This document shows positions 17,642 to 52,508 of a stretch of DNA of 64,000 bases, piece after piece. Both the position numbers and the translations under genes were made by a program. Each line of letters begins with the position of its first letter. The first letter of the stretch is position 1. The stretch comes from a virus (lineage: Duplodnaviria; Caudoviricetes), in the IMG/VR virus record IMGVR_UViG_3300037467_001237, positions 6,370 to 70,369 of that record; one strand, given 5' to 3'. The notes under the pieces were generated by a model. The model was not told where the DNA came from. It ran no database searches and saw only the letters and a program-made list of their open reading frames with translations.

Positions 17642-17893
17642 TTGCCCACCGGCCGACGCATCGAGGTGCGCCGCCCGGTGGGCAACCACCACGGCGCAGC
17701 TCTGCGCGGCGCTCCGCGTCGCCACGCATCACTTCGCATCGCAGCGCTACGCAACGCAACGCAACGGGTGCCCAGCACCGGCCGCCTCAGAAATGGGGCG
17801 GCCCATGGTGGGCAACCACCACCGTCGCCACGCAGCGCGACGCCGCGCCCCGCATCACAACGCAACTCACCGCAACACAACGCAACGTCCTAA
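17642..17893 (+). ncRNA. CGC-NN pentamer array A (two guide-like tracts, 17690-17766 and 17821-17887) with structured module 17767-17820
   Basis: Phased units such as cac-gg cgc-ag ctc-tg cgc-gg cgc-tc cgc-gt; 54-nt module repeated at 18552 and 18672. Confidence 0.8.
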
Positions 17894-17905
17894 AGGAAGA
17901 TCATC

Positions 17906-18469
17906 ATGAAAATCGTTGAAGTGGATCTGGTCTCGACCGCCCCGTATTCGCAGTCGTACAAGCACGACACTCCGAAGAAGGACAAGGAGAGCGCCGACGA
18001 CCACGAGAAGCGCACTTGGCGGGAGAAATGCACGACTGACGCCGAAGGGAATATTCAGATCCCGGCCATGGCATTCAAGCAGGCGCTCGACAGCGTCGCG
18101 AAGCGCATGGGCATCCAGGTCCCCGGCCGCGGCAAGAACACCTACACCAAGCACTTCCTCGGCGGCGTGATCTGCGAGTCCGATGTGGCGATCGGCTATC
18201 ACAAGGACACGGTCCCAAGCATCACGATCAGCGCCAACTCTGACGGCGTCCGCGGATCGGGCAAGCGCGTATCGCGCACCTTTCCGCAGGTCCCGGAGTG
18301 GAAGGGAACCGCTCGGTTCGTCATCCTCGACGACACGGTCACGACTGAGGTCTTTGAGAAGCATCTCGTCGAGGCCGGTCGCTTCATCGGCATCGGCCGC
18401 TTCCGCCCCGAGAAGGGCGGCCTCAATGGGCGCTTCCGTCCGACCGCGTTCCGCTGGTCGGACATCTAA
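17906..18469 (+). CDS. RAMP/Cas7-like protein (Vipr-like, locus 1)
   Basis: N-terminal strand VDLVSTAPY, IPAMAFKQAL (cf. RAMP IPGSSLKGAL), Gly-rich loop AGRFIGIGRFRPEKGGLNGRF; embedded between arrays. Confidence 0.75.
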   Translation: MKIVEVDLVSTAPYSQSYKHDTPKKDKESADDHEKRTWREKCTTDAEGNIQIPAMAFKQALDSVAKRMGIQVPGRGKNTYTKHFLGGVICESDVAIGYHKDTVPSITISANSDGVRGSGKRVSRTFPQVPEWKGTARFVILDDTVTTEVFEKHLVEAGRFIGIGRFRPEKGGLNGRFRPTAFRWSDI

Positions 18470-18480
18470 ATAAGCTTCCC

Positions 18481-18799
18481 CGCGCTGCGCGACGCGACAC
18501 ACCGCAACTCGTCGCTCCGCATCGCATCGCAACGCCTCGCAACGCAACGAAGGTGCCCAGCACCAGCCGCCTCCGAAAGGGGGTGGCTCATGGTGGGCAA
18601 CCACCGAACTGCACCGCCCCGCAACGCAACGCAGCGCTACGCGCCGCAACTCACCACAACACCCCGCAACGGGTGCCCAGCACCAGCCGCCTCCGAAAGG
18701 GGGTGGCTCATGGTGGGCAACCACCGAACTGCACCGCGCAGCGCGACGCGGCGCCTCGCATCACAGTGCAACGCATCTCAACGCAACGCGACGTCCTAA
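18481..18799 (+). ncRNA. CGC-NN pentamer array B (tracts 18481-18550, 18610-18670, 18732-18793) separated by identical 54-nt modules
   Basis: 14 in-phase NN-CNC units at 18481-18550 (last unit cga); modules 18552-18605 and 18672-18725 are identical. Confidence 0.85.
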
Positions 18800-18812
18800 C
18801 CCGGAGATCTCA

Positions 18813-49848: not shown

Positions 49849-50037
49849 ATGAGCGCCGTCGTTCTGGTGGTATTCGCAGTATTCTTCATCGTTGCGATGC
49901 TAAGAATACTGGGCATGCCGGTCTACGCGGCGCGAGAAATTCGCGGCGACCGTCCAACCCTGGGCTGGGCGATGATCTGGGTTTGGCTTTTTATACTCTG
50001 GATCATCTGGGACGTGGGCAGCAGCTTCATGCACTAG
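49849..50037 (+). CDS. Small two-TM moron protein
   Basis: Antisense to the tail operon; two hydrophobic segments. Confidence 0.6.
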   Translation: MSAVVLVVFAVFFIVAMLRILGMPVYAAREIRGDRPTLGWAMIWVWLFILWIIWDVGSSFMH

Positions 50038-50495
50038 CCGAGCCCGGCCAGGTGCCGGTTGACCCCCGTGCCGATGATGTGGACGACGTCGTGCGCCCTT
50101 CGCGCGCCAGCCGCCCCCATGACGGGGCGCGCTGGCATGTTCGCGGTCCCCAGTTCAAACCACTCCGCGCGCCTGTCGTCTGAGCCGATCGCGGCGTGGT
50201 TGTGGTCGATGACCTTGTGCTCGATGCCGTCCCGGAACGTTCCATCGCGCAACAGCGGATTGTCGGGCGGCGCGTAGCCGAGTTCGATCTTGCCGGGGAA
50301 TCCTTTGAAGCCGTTCAGCGTCGTTTCCGCGAGTGGCTCCCACCCGGCGTCATATGTGCCGATCAACCCGCGCGCGTCCCGTTCGACGAGGGCGGCGGCC
50401 TTTTCCAGGGCGCGATGCTGCGCCTCGGGGAGCGTTGCGATCACCGCGTTCATGTGCGCGACGAAAGACGAGATCGAGTTGAACGTGCGCGCCAT
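50034..50495 (-). CDS. HK97 gp10-like tail component
   Basis: LLRDGTFRDGI, WFELGTANMPARPVM. Confidence 0.7.
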   Translation of the reverse strand: MARTFNSISSFVAHMNAVIATLPEAQHRALEKAAALVERDARGLIGTYDAGWEPLAETTLNGFKGFPGKIELGYAPPDNPLLRDGTFRDGIEHKVIDHNHAAIGSDDRRAEWFELGTANMPARPVMGAAGARRAHDVVHIIGTGVNRHLAGLG

Positions 50496-50501
50496 CGAGC
50501 C

Positions 50502-50663
50502 CTACTTCAGATAGCTGTTAGCCCTCAGATGCTCGACCAGCAGCAACTCGACCAACGAGGTCAGCGACCGACGCTGCTCCGCGGCTGCGCGCTCGGCAGC
50601 CTCTTTGATCGCCGGCTCGATCCTGAGATTGAGCGTCGCCGTCTTTTTGCGCTGCTCCGCCAT
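50502..50663 (-). CDS. Arc-like ribbon-helix-helix regulator (53 aa)
   Basis: Manual translation MAEQRKKTATLNLRIEPAIKEAAERAAAEQRRSLTSLVELLL. Confidence 0.75.
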   Translation of the reverse strand: MAEQRKKTATLNLRIEPAIKEAAERAAAEQRRSLTSLVELLLVEHLRANSYLK

Positions 50664-50681
50664 TAATGTACCGCCACTGGC

Positions 50682-50709
50682 TTGACACGCTCTTTCGGCA
50701 GTGTATCGT
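50682..50709 (+). promoter_or_regulatory. Putative promoter of the HNH-Vipr-like cassette
   Basis: TTGACA-N16-TATCGT. Confidence 0.5.
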
Positions 50710-50741
50710 GAGTGGCGTTACAAAGCAACGGTTCGGAAGCG

Positions 50742-51170
50742 GTGACCTACGAGGAGTACATCGGATCATCGGTCTGGGCCGCCCTGCGCCAACTAGCGCT
50801 GGAGCGCGACAGCTTCCGCTGCCGAGGCTGCGATGCCGCAGACAACTTAGAGGTTCACCACCGTCGCTACGGCGATCCTCTTGGAACAGAGACAGTGGAA
50901 GATCTGACCACGCTCTGCGTCGAGTGCCACAGAGCGATCACAACCATCATTCGTCGACGTAGATACGAGAAGCAGACTCACGTCGTCGCCACAGCAACAA
51001 GGCTTACGCCAAGCAGAGCGGAGATTGTCCGTGTCCTACCAGCGCTTGAAGTTCAAAATTTCGTCCGCCGCACCCCTGGTCATGCACAACGGCCGGCTAG
51101 CGAACCCGCTAGATCCAATGTCGAAGGCGCTCAAGCGCGTGTCGAGCAAGCGCGCGAAGACGGATGCTGA
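50742..51170 (+). CDS. HNH endonuclease overlapping the Vipr-like gene
   Basis: ERDSFRCRGC, LEVHH, LTTLCVECH. Confidence 0.75.
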   Translation: MTYEEYIGSSVWAALRQLALERDSFRCRGCDAADNLEVHHRRYGDPLGTETVEDLTTLCVECHRAITTIIRRRRYEKQTHVVATATRLTPSRAEIVRVLPALEVQNFVRRTPGHAQRPASEPARSNVEGAQARVEQAREDGC

Positions 51171-51600
51171 CTTCGCCGAGATGGCTCGGATTGAGTTCTT
51201 GGGCGGCCTCTACGTCAGCGAGGACGGCCCATGCATCCCCGGTGAGTTGGTCGAGGCCGCGCTTGTTGCCGCCGCCAAGAAGAGCAAGCGTGGCGTTCAG
51301 GCCAAGATCGGACTCATCTCTGATGGCAACCACAAGCTCGACTACGATGGCCCCAGGGCGCCGGACGAGCTATGGCAAGATGAGAAGTTTCGGCTCGTCG
51401 CTGGCGTCAAAGTAGGCCAAGCGCGGGTCATGAGAACGCGACCGATCTTCCGAGATTGGTCCTGTGAGATCTTCGTCGACTTCTTGCCCGATCAGTTGAA
51501 TCGGTCAGAGGTCGCGGAGATGGTTCGGACTGCGGGGGCTATCGTTGGTATCGGCGATTGGCGTCCGAAGTTCGGGCGGTTCGCAGCAGAGATGCTGTGA
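51031..51600 (+). CDS. RAMP/Cas7-like protein (Vipr-like, locus 2)
   Basis: APLVMHN, CIPGELVEAAL, RVMRTRPIFRDW, Gly-rich loop AGAIVGIGDWRPKFGRF; GGAG RBS 7 nt before GTG; arrays begin 4 nt after the stop. Confidence 0.8.
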   Translation: MSYQRLKFKISSAAPLVMHNGRLANPLDPMSKALKRVSSKRAKTDADFAEMARIEFLGGLYVSEDGPCIPGELVEAALVAAAKKSKRGVQAKIGLISDGNHKLDYDGPRAPDELWQDEKFRLVAGVKVGQARVMRTRPIFRDWSCEIFVDFLPDQLNRSEVAEMVRTAGAIVGIGDWRPKFGRFAAEML

Positions 51601-51604
51601 ATTT

Positions 51605-51852
51605 GGTGCCGTTCGGCGTGGCTCGGCAAGGCAGGGTGGGCCATGGCGAGGCAGGTCAGGGCGGGGTCCGACAAGGGAGATCGAGGAGGCGCTGCGGTGC
51701 CTTCTCGATCCGCCGATCACTGTGAACTCCCATCGCCATAAGGCGATCGGCGTCCACAGTGTGGGCGATTAGGGCATGACGTGGTCAGTCAGGGCATGTC
51801 GGGCCGAGGCGAGTTTGGCCGAGGCGCGGTGTGGCAAGGCGAGGCAAGGGCC
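51605..51852 (+). ncRNA. GGY-NN pentamer guide arrays (51605-51679, 15 units; 51773-51852, 16 units) with a structured spacer
   Basis: In-phase units such as ggcgt ggctc ggcaa ggcag ggtgg; hairpin/pseudoknot 51679-51761. Confidence 0.85.
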
Positions 51853-51860
51853 TTCGGGCG

Positions 51861-51891
51861 GGGCGGGTCGTTTCTGCGGCCCGTCCTTATT
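51861..51891 (+). terminator. Terminator-like hairpin ending the array transcript
   Basis: GGGCGGGTCG-tttctg-CGGCCCGTCC followed by TTATT. Confidence 0.6.
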
Positions 51892-52428
51892 GCTCGCGCG
51901 CCTGCCAAGTCCAGGAGTTGAAATTGAATTTCGCCTCGCCCTTCATCTCGACTGCGACGATATACATCGCGGTTCGCATGCGATCGGACAAGGTCTCGAC
52001 GACGGACCATGGCACACCGGCCGCGCTCAATGTCATCATCTCGACGAGGCCGGGCGCCTGTGTTAGTTTTTTATTGCTTCCCGCTCGTCTTCGTATTCAA
52101 CCGGGTTAAGCGAGCGCAGTCCCTCGTTGATCGAGTCCCAGTCGTCGCCGACGCGCTGGACGATCGCCATGATCTGGGTCTTGGTCGAGCGCTTCAGGTC
52201 GGTGTCGCCGTCGATCGCTTTGACCGAGTACGCGACCAGCGCATAGGTCAGGAACGGAATGTTCTGGCTCGCCTCGGGACCGATCGCCTCGAACACGAGC
52301 ATGCGGTCGATCGGGCTGAGCCGCTTGATCTTGTAGGTCTTGCCGGTGGGGCCGACGACATCGACGGTGCCGGGCGCGGCGGACTTAACCTCGGCCGCAT
52401 CGGCGGCGTGGACGGTGACCTTAGCCAT
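51887..52428 (-). CDS. Tail assembly chaperone G (52063-52428) and -1 frameshift product GT (to 51887)
   Basis: Slippery A AAA AAC at 52072-52066 before TAA; the -1 frame runs LTQAPGLVEMMTLSAAG...WTWQAREQ. Confidence 0.8.
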
Positions 52429-52508
52429 CTGATTCCTAGGGGTTGAAGCGCTTCAGCGCGGGAAAGCGCGGGGCCGCCGCGCCTCATGCTCGGCGGCCCC
52501 GGAAAAGA

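What the first reader, a model, noticed from the sequence alone, without database searches (positions are those of the whole stretch)
51773..52164. A pentamer-array guide spells a gapped, wobble-skipping copy of the neighbouring tail-chaperone gene
Seen in sequence: tract 51773-51847 parses into G-initial triplet + NN units with NN = at gt ca ag at gg ga ga tg ga gc gt aa ga (aa). With one skipped base after each NN this aligns to the coding strand of the tail chaperone at 52164-52123: atc gtc cag cgc gtc ggc gac gac tgg gac tcg atc aac gag (IVQRVGDDWDSINE). That is 24/28 positions and 10/14 exact dinucleotides. A rough uniform-base estimate is about 2e-11 per site, or about 3e-6 over both strands of the window; GC bias is not modelled. 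The skipped base is always codon position 3. All four mismatches are at codon position 1 and are conservative (AG vs CG can both be Arg; I/V, A/S, V/I), so the guide encodes IVQ(R/S)IGDDWDAVNE. Inference: the guide targets the homologous chaperone gene of a competing relative, is insensitive to synonymous escape, and the resident copy avoids self-targeting through first-position changes. Attenuated self-regulation is the alternative reading. The skip-every-third-base rule is my recollection of reported VIPR systems; here the sequence independently supports it.
Basis: partly seen in the sequence, partly recalled or inferred. Interest (0 to 1): 0.95.

Follow-up and report, generated by a model that had tools for sequence, protein, structure and literature searches.

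The report
Phage VIPR guide aimed at kin chaperone
The five-base repeat tract is a real guide RNA of the recently described VIPR system; its two-of-three-letter code spells the tail-chaperone gene of related phages that lack the cassette better than the phage's own copy next door, so it most likely acts against close relatives.

Summary
Tract 51773-51847 is 15 G-N-Y+NN pentamers. With one base skipped per unit, its NN letters match the chaperone coding strand (52164-52124) at 24/28. The next best site in the 70-kb virus record scores 19, and 0 of 2000 NN-order shuffles exceed 22.

The locus is a VIPR system:
- The 191-aa ORF matches the solved SUSP1 Vipr protein (E 1.8e-45).
- An HNH gene lies directly upstream in 56 of 77 related loci.
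- Arrays follow vipr in 65 of 77.

Two complete sister phages have neither vipr nor arrays, and their flanks abut where this 1.4-kb cassette sits. One carries the chaperone site at 26/28, with the ten tail-proximal units perfect. That relaxed pattern occurs once in all of IMG/VR.

The resident allele is interrupted at units 4, 5, 11 and 12, always at codon position 1.

A second Vipr lineage repeats the design: cassette beside the target, resident copy altered, cognate site in 107 contigs, with no vipr found on any of the 80 fetched.

Best reading is kin targeting with a linked, mismatched self allele, possibly RNA-guided homing. Nothing was tested functionally. Earlier notes of this scan describe similar cases on other DNA.

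The parts
50502..50663 (-). Arc/RHH-like small gene at the far end of the inserted block, divergent from the cassette promoter
   Evidence: Pfam HicB/TacA1-like and PHROG Arc-like repressor, E about 1e-4. It lies inside the segment absent from the sister phages. It was not found next to vipr in the 77 related loci with this query.
50682..50709 (+). sigma-70-like promoter (TTGACA, 16 nt, TATCGT) just before the HNH gene
   Evidence: 10 of 12 consensus matches, the only promoter-like site in 50400-52500. This is a consensus match only.
50712..51170 (+). HNH endonuclease gene, the vipr-accessory (vap) gene; its open frame overlaps the vipr start
   Evidence: Pfam HNH E 8.5e-6 and PHROG HNH families to 4e-11. 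A homolog lies directly upstream on the same strand in 56 of 77 related loci. An overlap of 103-145 nt with vipr recurs in the five closest relatives.
51025..51600 (+). vipr gene (191 aa RAMP protein)
   Evidence: The profile of 21 homologs hits PDB 36pp_D 'SUSP1 Vipr protein' at E 1.8e-45. AlphaFold2 pLDDT is 92. Foldseek top hits are Cas7/Csm3 RAMPs. GGY-contacting residues are conserved: H21, R139, D178, W179, R180.
51605..51679 (+). vrRNA1 repeat tract (13-15 pentamers, terminal unit GACAA then GGG)
   Evidence: Second-best GGY/NN array of the whole record. No target at or above shuffle level in this phage or its two sisters, and no exact 11-unit match in IMG/VR.
51680..51772 (+). vrRNA1 3' tail / spacer: two strong hairpins
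   Evidence: MFE -61.3 kcal/mol, z -8.25 against 200 shuffles.
51773..51847 (+). vrRNA2 repeat tract: 14 guide units plus a semi-conserved terminal unit (51843-51847)
   Evidence: Best array of the record; parse; terminal-unit conservation. Six of 15 units have a non-G second base, which is in the top 2% of 320 arrays.
51848..51890 (+). vrRNA2 tail: small UUCG hairpin plus a G+C-rich terminator-like hairpin, ending at the cassette boundary
   Evidence: MFE -29.5 kcal/mol, z -3.5. Relatives show the same plan of GGG, short hairpin, then terminator hairpin.
52124..52164 (-). near-cognate site in the resident chaperone gene (codons 89-102, IVQRVGDDWDSINE), 238-278 bp from the cassette boundary
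   Evidence: 24/28. The homologous site scores 26/28 in G002 and 23/28 in G001.
52063..52428 (-). tail assembly chaperone gene (121 aa) between tube and tape-measure genes
   Evidence: Synteny is sheath, tube, this gene, tape measure. PHROG 20383, unknown function. The slippery heptamer A_AAA_AAC at 52072-52066 leads in the -1 frame into the next ORF (read).
51887..52039 (-). -1-frame extension ORF of the chaperone (G/GT-type); its stop abuts the cassette
   Evidence: Frame and open reading checked. Homologs in both sister phages are followed directly by the next tail gene.
50034..50495 (-). tail-completion/Neck1-like gene that directly follows the chaperone extension in cassette-free relatives
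   Evidence: PHROG 26, E 2.9e-6; junction sequences.

Best explanation
The 1.4-kb block 50496-51886 is a mobile VIPR cassette: an Arc-like gene, a promoter, an HNH vap, vipr and two vrRNAs. It is inserted antisense in the tail operon, between the chaperone's frameshift extension and the next tail gene.

vrRNA2 is a genuine guide. Vipr protomers hold each G-N-Y triplet and present the NN pairs. These pairs read the template strand of a tail-chaperone gene with every third (wobble) base skipped.

Its cognate target is the chaperone allele of closely related, cassette-free phages. The resident allele, 240 bp from the cassette, differs from the guide at four first-codon positions. Two of these lie in the tail-proximal part, where R-loop formation starts in the published structures. 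The resident copy is therefore probably spared.

On co-infection or superinfection the RNP would bind the rival's tail operon and, with the HNH partner, probably cut it. That would exclude the rival, or let the break be repaired from the cassette-bearing genome.

Shown here: the code match, the family membership, the insertion polymorphism, and the better match in a relative. Inferred: expression, binding, self-sparing, and cleavage.
For: - Match significance: 24/28 against a null maximum of 22 in 2000 shuffles, and only with the 1-nt skip.
- Vipr identity: E 1.8e-45 to solved SUSP1 Vipr, with RNA-contact residues conserved.
- Conserved operon: HNH upstream in 56/77 loci and array downstream in 65/77.
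- Sister phages G001 and G002 (CheckV 100% complete) have no vipr of either type and no arrays. Their flanks abut where the cassette sits.
- G002 scores 26/28 with units 5-14 perfect and contiguous. Self is broken at units 4, 5, 11 and 12.
- R-loops grow 3'-to-5' from the tail-proximal units (paper 10.64898/2026.04.26.720927).
- The relaxed 24-base pattern occurs once in IMG/VR, in G002.
- Val93 of the resident allele is unique among the five known alleles, which all have Ile as the guide spells.
- The guide is sense to the chaperone mRNA, so it can pair only with DNA.
- Independent replicate in a Vipr lineage 46% identical (L136 group): the cassette lies between the terminase and head-tail joining genes, and the guide matches the first codons of the adjacent gene (22-23/32 in the carriers). 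The cognate pattern is in 107 IMG/VR contigs. On all 80 fetched no vipr was found, and 79/80 have abutting flanks.
- A Methylobacterium prophage (L004) has a guide at 19/22 to its own tape-measure gene, reached by 0/2000 shuffles.
- Contigs of divergent relatives, one of which departs from this phage just inside the cassette boundary, lie in the likely source soil sample at about three times the depth.
Against: - No 28/28 allele was found. AG at unit 4 matches none of the three DNA alleles, and only five alleles are known.
- The self match of 85.7% is above the 80% cut-off the VIPR authors use for natural targets. They report no self hits at that level. Self-sparing is therefore an assumption, because mismatch tolerance is not quantified in print.
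- vrRNA2 is unusually degenerate: 6 of 15 units are not GGY.
- G001, another cassette-free relative, scores lower than self (23/28).
- A role of the HNH vap in cutting is predicted, not demonstrated, in the papers read.
Confidence: 0.75

Rival explanations
1. Attenuated self-regulation. The Vipr-vrRNA2 complex binds the phage's own chaperone gene weakly and acts as a roadblock in the late tail operon, tuning expression of the genes downstream (tail-completion gene, tape measure), for instance during lysogeny.
For: The self match of 85.7% passes the published 80% target threshold. The site lies upstream of the tape-measure gene in the same operon. In the L144 contig the guide's nine core units match the carrier's own adjacent gene 18/18. 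VIPR silences from either strand.
Against: A relative's allele fits better than self exactly at the self-mismatched letters. Sister phages run the same tail operon without any VIPR. With an HNH partner, self-binding risks self-cutting. Two of the mismatches sit in the tail-proximal region, where pairing starts.
Confidence: 0.1
2. Decaying relic. vrRNA2 once matched an ancestral chaperone allele. Guide and genes have since drifted, and the array no longer works.
For: 40% of units depart from GGY at the second base, in the top 2% of 320 arrays. Every known allele has at least two mismatches.
Against: G1 and Y3 are intact in all 15 units and the tail hairpins are intact. vipr and HNH are full-length with conserved residues. 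The second base is the most tolerant constant position family-wide, at 14% non-G. The 20/20 contiguous match to G002 is hard to keep under drift.
Confidence: 0.08
3. Chance resemblance between a G-rich periodic tract and a GC-rich coding sequence.
For: Guide first letters are G-rich, like codon first positions, which raises background scores in frame.
Against: Shuffles that keep the same dinucleotides and scan the same genome never exceed 22. The hit lies 280 bp from the array. The homologous site of a relative scores higher. The same design recurs in an unrelated phage group.
Confidence: 0.01

Closest known systems
Type II VIPR of Escherichia phage SUSP1 and the Pseudomonas fulva prophage (bioRxiv 10.64898/2026.04.26.720920; structures 10.64898/2026.04.26.720927)
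   Same: Homologous Vipr protein with the same GGY-binding residues. vrRNA arrays of about 15 pentamers lie right after vipr. The 1-nt skip code applies, with the skipped base on the wobble position. The system is phage-borne and aimed at competing mobile elements.
   Different: The accessory gene is an HNH nuclease, not the DNA-binding vap1. The second repeat base is degenerate. The tails are plain hairpins; a pseudoknot was not tested. The target is a structural gene of sister phages whose resident copy lies beside the cassette. The self match exceeds the 80% level at which those studies saw no self hits.
Nuclease-bearing VIPR types (III-V; an HNH-domain Vap is among the type II, III and VII representatives of Fig. 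S21 of the same preprint)
   Same: A nuclease vap next to vipr, one or few vrRNAs, and guides that match viral sequences.
   Different: Those types are described as enriched in host defence islands and as host immunity. This copy sits inside a phage tail operon and points at kin phages. Type assignment could not be verified because the classification tables are not held.
Solo and VIPR-borne vrRNAs of SUSP1-family phages that target relatives' vipr or vrRNA loci with lower self-match (bioRxiv 10.64898/2026.10.15.759431)
   Same: Guides directed at homologs of the carrier's own sequences, with self and non-self told apart by a few informative positions.
   Different: There the targets are VIPR loci themselves and satellites. 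Here the target is an ordinary structural gene physically linked to the cassette, with cassette presence/absence polymorphism at that spot.
Free-standing homing endonucleases of T-even phages (SegF, SegG, MobE: intronless homing and marker exclusion; my own knowledge, not checked in the library)
   Same: A nuclease cassette wedged between conserved genes, present in some relatives and cleanly absent in others. The recognition site lies in the cassette-free allele within a few hundred bp of the insertion point. The carrier's own site is polymorphic.
   Different: Specificity would come from an RNA guide read by a RAMP filament, not from the nuclease's own DNA-binding domain. Cutting and gene conversion are untested.
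TnpB/IscB omega-RNA-guided nucleases that keep IS200/IS605 transposons by cutting the empty site (my own knowledge, not checked in the library)
   Same: The logic of a selfish element carrying an RNA guide against the element-free allele.
   Different: Unrelated protein fold (RuvC), a contiguous guide, and a transposon context.

Membership tests
VIPR system | Vipr protein: minimal RAMP (RRM core, G-loop, thumb) homologous to described Viprs | tested here: met
   hmmsearch of a 21-sequence profile hits PDB 36pp_D 'SUSP1 Vipr protein' at E 1.8e-45 over residues 5-187. The AF2 model has pLDDT 92. Foldseek top hits are Cas7/Csm3 at E about 4e-5.
VIPR system | Residues that hold the GGY bases and the skipped base (SUSP1 H17, K33, R39, R138, D177, W178, R179) | tested here: met
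   Mapped through the alignment to H21, K37, R43, R139, D178, W179, R180. Six of these are invariant columns in 21 homologs. K37 is present here but is not in the invariant or near-invariant lists.
VIPR system | vrRNA: 9-16 tandem GGY/NN pentamers with hypervariable NN next to vipr | tested here: met
   Two arrays of 13-15 units start 5 nt and 173 nt after vipr and are the two best arrays in the record. Arrays follow vipr in 65/77 relatives. NN entropy is about 3.8 of 4 bits at internal units. Deviation: 6/15 units are G-[A/T/C]-Y.
VIPR system | Structured, conserved 3' tail after the repeat tract | tested here: inconclusive
   Strong hairpins follow both arrays (z -8.25 and -3.5), and relatives share a GGG, short hairpin, terminator plan. 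No covariation model was built. The pseudoknot of the SUSP1 clade was not tested. Rfam has no match in the cassette.
VIPR system | Target recognition by the 1-nt skip rule, skipped base on the codon wobble position | tested here: met
   Only skip 1 gives a hit above the null (24 against at most 19). Skips 0 and 2 give at most 18. The hit is in frame, with x at codon position 3.
VIPR system | vrRNA is expressed and forms an RNP with Vipr that binds DNA | not testable with these tools
   This needs RNA sequencing, pull-down and binding assays.
VIPR system | No self hit at >=80% NN match on the source contig (an empirical property reported for types II, III and V, not a definition) | tested here: not met
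   Self match is 24/28 = 85.7% (22/26 = 84.6% without unit 14).
Type III (HNH-vap) VIPR | Placement in the type III clade of the Vipr tree with its vap | not tested
   The HNH vap is present and conserved, but the authors' tree and type tables are not held.
Free-standing homing endonuclease cassette (intronless homing) | Nuclease cassette present or cleanly absent between the same two genes in close relatives | tested here: met
   In G002 the flanks lie 7 nt apart where the window has 1.4 kb. In the L136 group 79/80 cassette-free contigs have abutting flanks.
Free-standing homing endonuclease cassette (intronless homing) | Recognition site in the cassette-free allele close to the insertion point, with the carrier's own site altered | tested here: met
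   In silico only. The site is 238-278 bp from the boundary, at 26/28 in G002 against 24/28 in self. In the L136 group the site starts 15 nt into the adjacent gene, at 24/26 in 80/80 fetched cassette-free contigs against 22-23/32 in the carriers.
Free-standing homing endonuclease cassette (intronless homing) | Site-specific cleavage and copying of the cassette into the cut allele | not testable with these tools
   This needs cleavage and co-infection or recombination assays. Indirect hint only: G001 and G002 are 97% identical over the 5' chaperone and diverge from inside the target site onward.

The most novel reading that the evidence does not exclude
HNH-type VIPR cassettes are RNA-guided homing elements. 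The vrRNA directs Vipr and HNH to the cassette-free allele right beside the cassette's own insertion point in sister phages. The break is repaired from the cassette-bearing genome. The cassette and its linked, mismatched 'immune' allele are then copied in together, as a natural RNA-programmed gene drive with marker exclusion among phages.

Two independent insertions seen here fit this layout: the tail operon of this phage and the terminase/head-tail joining junction of the L136 group. No paper in the library pairs vrRNA with homing.
Probability: 0.3. Interest if true: 0.85.

Novelty: new variant of a known kind. Interest (0 to 1): 0.6.

Why it matters
VIPR was described only in 2026, and its natural targets are known for a handful of clades: satellites, prophage regulators and other VIPR loci.

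This locus shows an HNH-bearing VIPR carried by a complete soil phage whose guide reads a conserved block of a structural gene of its own kin. The phage's own copy sits 240 bp away and differs only at first-codon letters.

That gives a natural, ready-made triplet of targets for measuring how many mismatches VIPR tolerates and where: resident at 24/28, sister at 26/28, inferred perfect at 28/28. Mismatch tolerance is not quantified in the papers read.

The recurring layout of the cassette beside its target in cassette-free kin also makes testable the idea that some VIPRs spread by RNA-guided homing.

Tried and rejected
Only their peptides are known.
- No RNA holder was listed for the stretch.
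- Read laying on four soil runs showed relatives' contigs, but the difference table was cut. The letters at 52124-52164 could not be read.
- The exact 28-base guide pattern has no match in IMG/VR.
- vrRNA1 has no target above shuffle level in this phage or its sisters. Its 11-unit pattern has no exact match in IMG/VR.
- A chaperone search in JGI metagenome contigs gave one distant relative, none in the phage GenBank set, and only 28-37% identical homologs in 401 genomes of the Methylobacterium family.
- 'relatives' cannot be drawn for a virus record.
- Rfam has no family in the cassette, only a sub-threshold CcsR1-like hairpin at 52431-52507.
- Cross-scanning all guides of the 77 genome loci against each other and the three phages gave one hit: an L044 guide on the L055 vipr.
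- Guides of the six closest viral Vipr loci do not hit this phage or its sisters.
- The constant-triplet letters do not track the skipped base (checked by eye).
- Three guides of the second, CGC-type locus gave no 1-nt-skip match. Two more were parsed out of register and are not counted.
Full report
**What is in the sequence**

From 51773 the plus strand reads as 15 phased pentamers, each G-N-Y followed by two variable letters.

I laid them on the minus strand from 52164 down to 52124 with one base skipped after each pair. They match 24 of 28 letters and 10 of 14 whole pairs. The skipped base is always the third codon position of the 121-aa ORF 52428-52063. The four mismatches (units 4, 5, 11, 12) are all first codon positions.

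Only a one-base skip gives this result. Skips of 0 or 2 give at most 18, and a skip of 3 finds only the array itself.

**Is it more than chance?**

The window is most of a 70,369-base virus record. Over both strands of that record the next best site scores 19.

- In 2000 shuffles of the NN order the best score anywhere was 22 (mean 18.4, sd 0.75).
- Letter shuffles also never passed 22 in 1000.
- The pooled per-site tail is 2.4e-8 at 22 or more and falls four- to five-fold per step.

I therefore put the genome-wide chance of 24 or more at about 1e-4 to 1e-5.

One refinement. Across 117 non-redundant arrays of this family the last unit is semi-conserved (A[AGT] in 61%, 3.07 bits against about 3.8 for internal units) and the one before it is mildly biased. 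The 15th unit here (AA) is therefore not a free guide position. Dropping unit 14, or units 13-14, leaves 22/26 or 20/24, still above all 2000 shuffles.

**What the locus is**

VIPR systems are in print. A small RAMP protein, Vipr, polymerises on a vrRNA made of GGY/NN pentamers. The NN pairs read double-stranded DNA with one base skipped per unit, usually the wobble base. Targets lie on either strand and no PAM is needed (bioRxiv 10.64898/2026.04.26.720920; structures in 10.64898/2026.04.26.720927).

The 191-aa ORF 51025-51600 belongs to a family of at least 944 proteins, mostly from Methylobacterium, Microvirga, Azospirillum and soil metagenomes.

- A profile of 21 members hits the solved 'SUSP1 Vipr protein' (36pp_D) at E 1.8e-45 over nearly its full length.
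- The AlphaFold2 model is confident (pLDDT 92), and its nearest solved folds are Cas7/Csm3 RAMPs.
- The residues that grip G1, G2 and Y3 in SUSP1 (H17, R138, D177, W178, R179), and R39 of the DNA-contacting residues, map to invariant columns here (H21, R139, D178, W179, R180, R43). K33 maps to K37, which is present here but is not an invariant column.

In 77 related genomic loci a GGY/NN array follows vipr within 300 nt in 65. An HNH endonuclease gene lies directly upstream on the same strand in 56. In the five closest relatives its open frame overlaps the vipr start by 103-145 nt, as it does here.

The unit is therefore promoter-like site (50682-50709), HNH vap, vipr, vrRNA1 (51605-51679) with a two-hairpin tail (z -8.25), then vrRNA2 (51773-51847) with a short hairpin and a terminator-like hairpin.

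An HNH-domain Vap is among the type II, III and VII representatives figured in the preprint. Nuclease vaps are said to mark types III-V. I could not verify the type because the classification tables are not held.

**The target gene**

The 121-aa ORF lies between the tube gene and the tape-measure gene of a sheath-tube contractile-tail module.

It ends with the slippery heptamer A_AAA_AAC (52072-52066). A -1 slip there runs without a stop into the 50-codon ORF 52039-51887 (read). This is the usual layout of a frameshifting tail assembly chaperone. The annotation rests on synteny and this signal, because the PHROG family itself has no assigned function.

The matched codons (89-102) fall in the most conserved block of the protein.

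**The relatives**

Only three other protein alleles exist among 5.8 billion clustered proteins. Two sister phages were recovered from IMG/VR:

- G001, 68.9 kb
- G002, 71.2 kb, with terminal repeats

Both are 100% complete by CheckV. They share about 84% nucleotide identity with the window across sheath, tube and chaperone.

Neither genome encodes a Vipr of either kind found in this phage, and neither has any GGY/NN array.

In both, the chaperone extension ORF is followed at once by the tail-completion-like gene. In G002 the two flanks lie 7 nt apart where the window has 50496-51886. The cassette, together with a small Arc-like gene, is thus a clean 1.4-kb insertion.

At the homologous site the scores are:

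| Genome | vrRNA2 match |
|---|---|
| G002 | 26/28 |
| G001 | 23/28 |
| resident copy | 24/28 |

In each genome this is the top hit by a wide margin.

Three of the four letters at which the guide departs from the resident gene are the letters G002 carries (ATC Ile, GCA Ala, GTC Val). By a simple hypergeometric estimate of my own, a random coincidence of that kind has a probability of roughly 2e-4.

The five peptide alleles are:

| Allele | Peptide |
|---|---|
| resident | IVQRVGDDWDSINE |
| G001 | IVKRIGDDWDSINE |
| P0122 | IVRRIGDDWDSINE |
| G002 | IVKRIGDDWDAVND |
| P0124 | IVKRIGDDWDAVNE |

The guide spells IVQ(R/S)IGDDWDAVN(D/E). Val at the fifth codon is unique to the cassette carrier.

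A pattern leaving units 3-4 free (24 fixed bases) occurs exactly once in the 2.9 million IMG/VR contigs, in G002. The full 28-base pattern occurs nowhere. The guide's AG at unit 4 matches no known DNA allele, so the perfect target, if it exists, is unsampled.

**Why self and non-self may differ in effect**

The cryo-EM series shows the filament and the R-loop growing from the units next to the 3' tail toward the 5' end.

- In G002, units 5-14 form 20 of 20 contiguous matches starting at the tail-proximal end.
- In the resident gene, pairing is interrupted after two units (mismatches at 12 and 11) and again at 5 and 4.

That is a mechanistic reason to expect discrimination, but mismatch tolerance has not been quantified in the papers I read.

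The published working threshold for a natural target is 80% NN match. The authors report no self hit at that level for types II, III and V. This resident site, at 85.7%, is an exception to that statement.

The guide has the same sense as the chaperone mRNA, so it cannot act as an antisense RNA. Only DNA pairing is possible.

**The pattern recurs**

I called arrays in 80 viral contigs carrying relatives of this Vipr and scanned each locus with its own guides. Sub-guides with 80% or more matches to the carrier's own flanks numbered 13, against 0 in shuffles. At 75% or more the counts were 84 against 18.

*L136 group (five related contigs, Vipr 46% identical to this one).* The cassette sits between the large terminase gene and a head-tail joining gene.

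- The third vrRNA matches the first codons of that adjacent gene at 22-23 of 32. In L144 nine central units are perfect.
- The guide's 11-unit core occurs exactly in 107 IMG/VR contigs.
- On all 80 fetched contigs no vipr was found and 24 of 26 letters match.
- In 79 of 80 both cassette flanks are present and abut.
- The carriers' own copies differ by an Arg AGR-to-CGA swap and an Ile/Val swap, the same kinds of change as in the window.

*Methylobacterium prophage L004.* The cassette is also in a tail module. One guide matches the prophage's own tape-measure gene in frame at 19/22, reached by 0 of 2000 shuffles.

*L044.* One array matches the vipr gene of another locus at 21/24 and its own at 18/24. 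This echoes the published finding that some guides hit relatives' VIPR loci with lower self-match.

Earlier notes of this scan describe the same design on other DNA, and one proposed homing. I used that note as a lead and tested the layout here independently.

**How it most likely works**

I favour kin targeting (about 0.75). The cassette-bearing phage makes a Vipr-vrRNA2 filament that recognises the chaperone gene of cassette-free sisters during co-infection or superinfection, while its own linked allele escapes.

The consequence could be silencing of the rival's tail operon, as shown for type II systems. With the conserved HNH partner it could also be a cut.

A cut beside the empty insertion site, repaired from the cassette-bearing genome, would copy the cassette and the resistant allele together. 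That is the logic of intronless homing by free-standing phage endonucleases and of TnpB-assisted transposon retention (both from my own knowledge).

Points that fit homing:

- the clean presence/absence polymorphism;
- a target 238-278 bp (window) or about 15-55 bp (L136 group) from the insertion point;
- the altered resident sites;
- the chaperone gene of the carrier being only 75-77% identical to both sisters, although these are 97% identical to each other there;
- the G001-G002 identity collapsing to 73% from a point inside the target site (52134) onward.

The last point is a single coincidence in a region with several such breaks (my estimate: about a 5% chance), so it is only a hint. I put homing at about 0.3.

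Contigs of divergent relatives occur in the likely source soil sample at about three times the depth of this phage. One of them departs from this phage's sequence at 51920, just inside the cassette boundary.

**Rivals**

- *Attenuated self-regulation (0.1)* is kept alive by the 85.7% self match and by the perfect 9-unit core in L144. It does not explain why a relative's letters fit the guide better.
- *A decaying relic (0.08)* is suggested by the unusual number of non-GGY units (6 of 15, top 2% of 320 arrays). However, G1 and Y3 are intact in every unit, and the 20/20 run against G002 argues against drift.
- *Chance* is excluded for practical purposes.

**Novelty**

The system is a member of a published kind. 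The new elements are:

- an HNH-type VIPR inside a phage tail operon;
- a kin structural gene as its target;
- a self near-match above the published threshold;
- the cassette-next-to-target layout, shown here twice independently.

No paper in the library pairs vrRNA with homing. Nothing here was tested functionally.

Noticed in passing
window 17695-18800 (ORF 17906-18469, +): A second, distant Vipr-like gene (187 aa; hhalign probability 93.5%, E 2.2e-7 to the Vipr profile) is flanked by pentamer arrays with a CGC/CAC constant triplet and repeated structured separators of about 54 nt. Non-canonical triplets such as CAC/NN are in print (10.64898/2026.10.21.760802). Three of its guides gave no 1-nt-skip match in this phage or its sisters. 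Rfam finds no ribozyme there.
   Followed up: partly
window 50712-51170 against 51025: The HNH open frame overlaps the vipr start by about 145 nt in another frame. A comparable overlap (103-145 nt) is present in the five closest related loci (L001-L005), so it may be a conserved arrangement rather than a GC-rich read-through.
   Followed up: partly
window 52066-52072 (-) and 51887-52065 (-): The slippery heptamer A_AAA_AAC lies at the end of the chaperone gene. The -1 frame stays open into the 50-codon ORF, a G/GT-type programmed frameshift about 50 nt downstream of the VIPR near-target.
   Followed up: partly
window 52134 (alignment of G0, L078, L079): The two VIPR-less sister phages are 95-97% identical over the first 290 nt of the chaperone gene and drop to 73% from a point inside the vrRNA2 target site onward. 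Contigs of relatives in the source sample also end at 52136-52165. This may be a recombination junction at the target, or a coincidence.
   Followed up: partly
L136:2535-4072 (also L144, L148, L150, L152): An HNH-vipr-three-vrRNA cassette is inserted between the large terminase gene and a head-tail joining gene. The third guide reads the first codons of the adjacent gene. The cognate site is present in 107 IMG/VR contigs. On the 80 fetched no vipr was found, and 79 of them have abutting flanks.
   Followed up: yes
L004:7576-7630 against L004:1449-4217 (-): In a Methylobacterium sp. E-005 prophage the first vrRNA matches the prophage's own tape-measure gene in frame at 19/22 (0 of 2000 shuffles reach this). 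Relatives' alleles were not examined.
   Followed up: partly
L044:1084-1213 against L055:2094 and L044:1357: An array upstream of vipr matches the conserved K-x-V-[ST]-x-KR codons of another locus's vipr at 21/24 and its own vipr at 18/24. This resembles the published vipr-targeting guides.
   Followed up: no
L079:10192-10365 and L078:11410-11592: Both cassette-free sister phages carry a free-standing HNH gene (48-60% identical to the vap HNH domain) between the tail-completion-like gene and the tape-measure gene, on the tail-gene strand. The window has none there.
   Followed up: no
L095:10720-10789 against L095:11901 (-): Another viral contig with a Vipr 73% identical to this one has a guide matching a 994-codon ORF 1.2 kb away at 22/28 in frame.
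   Followed up: no
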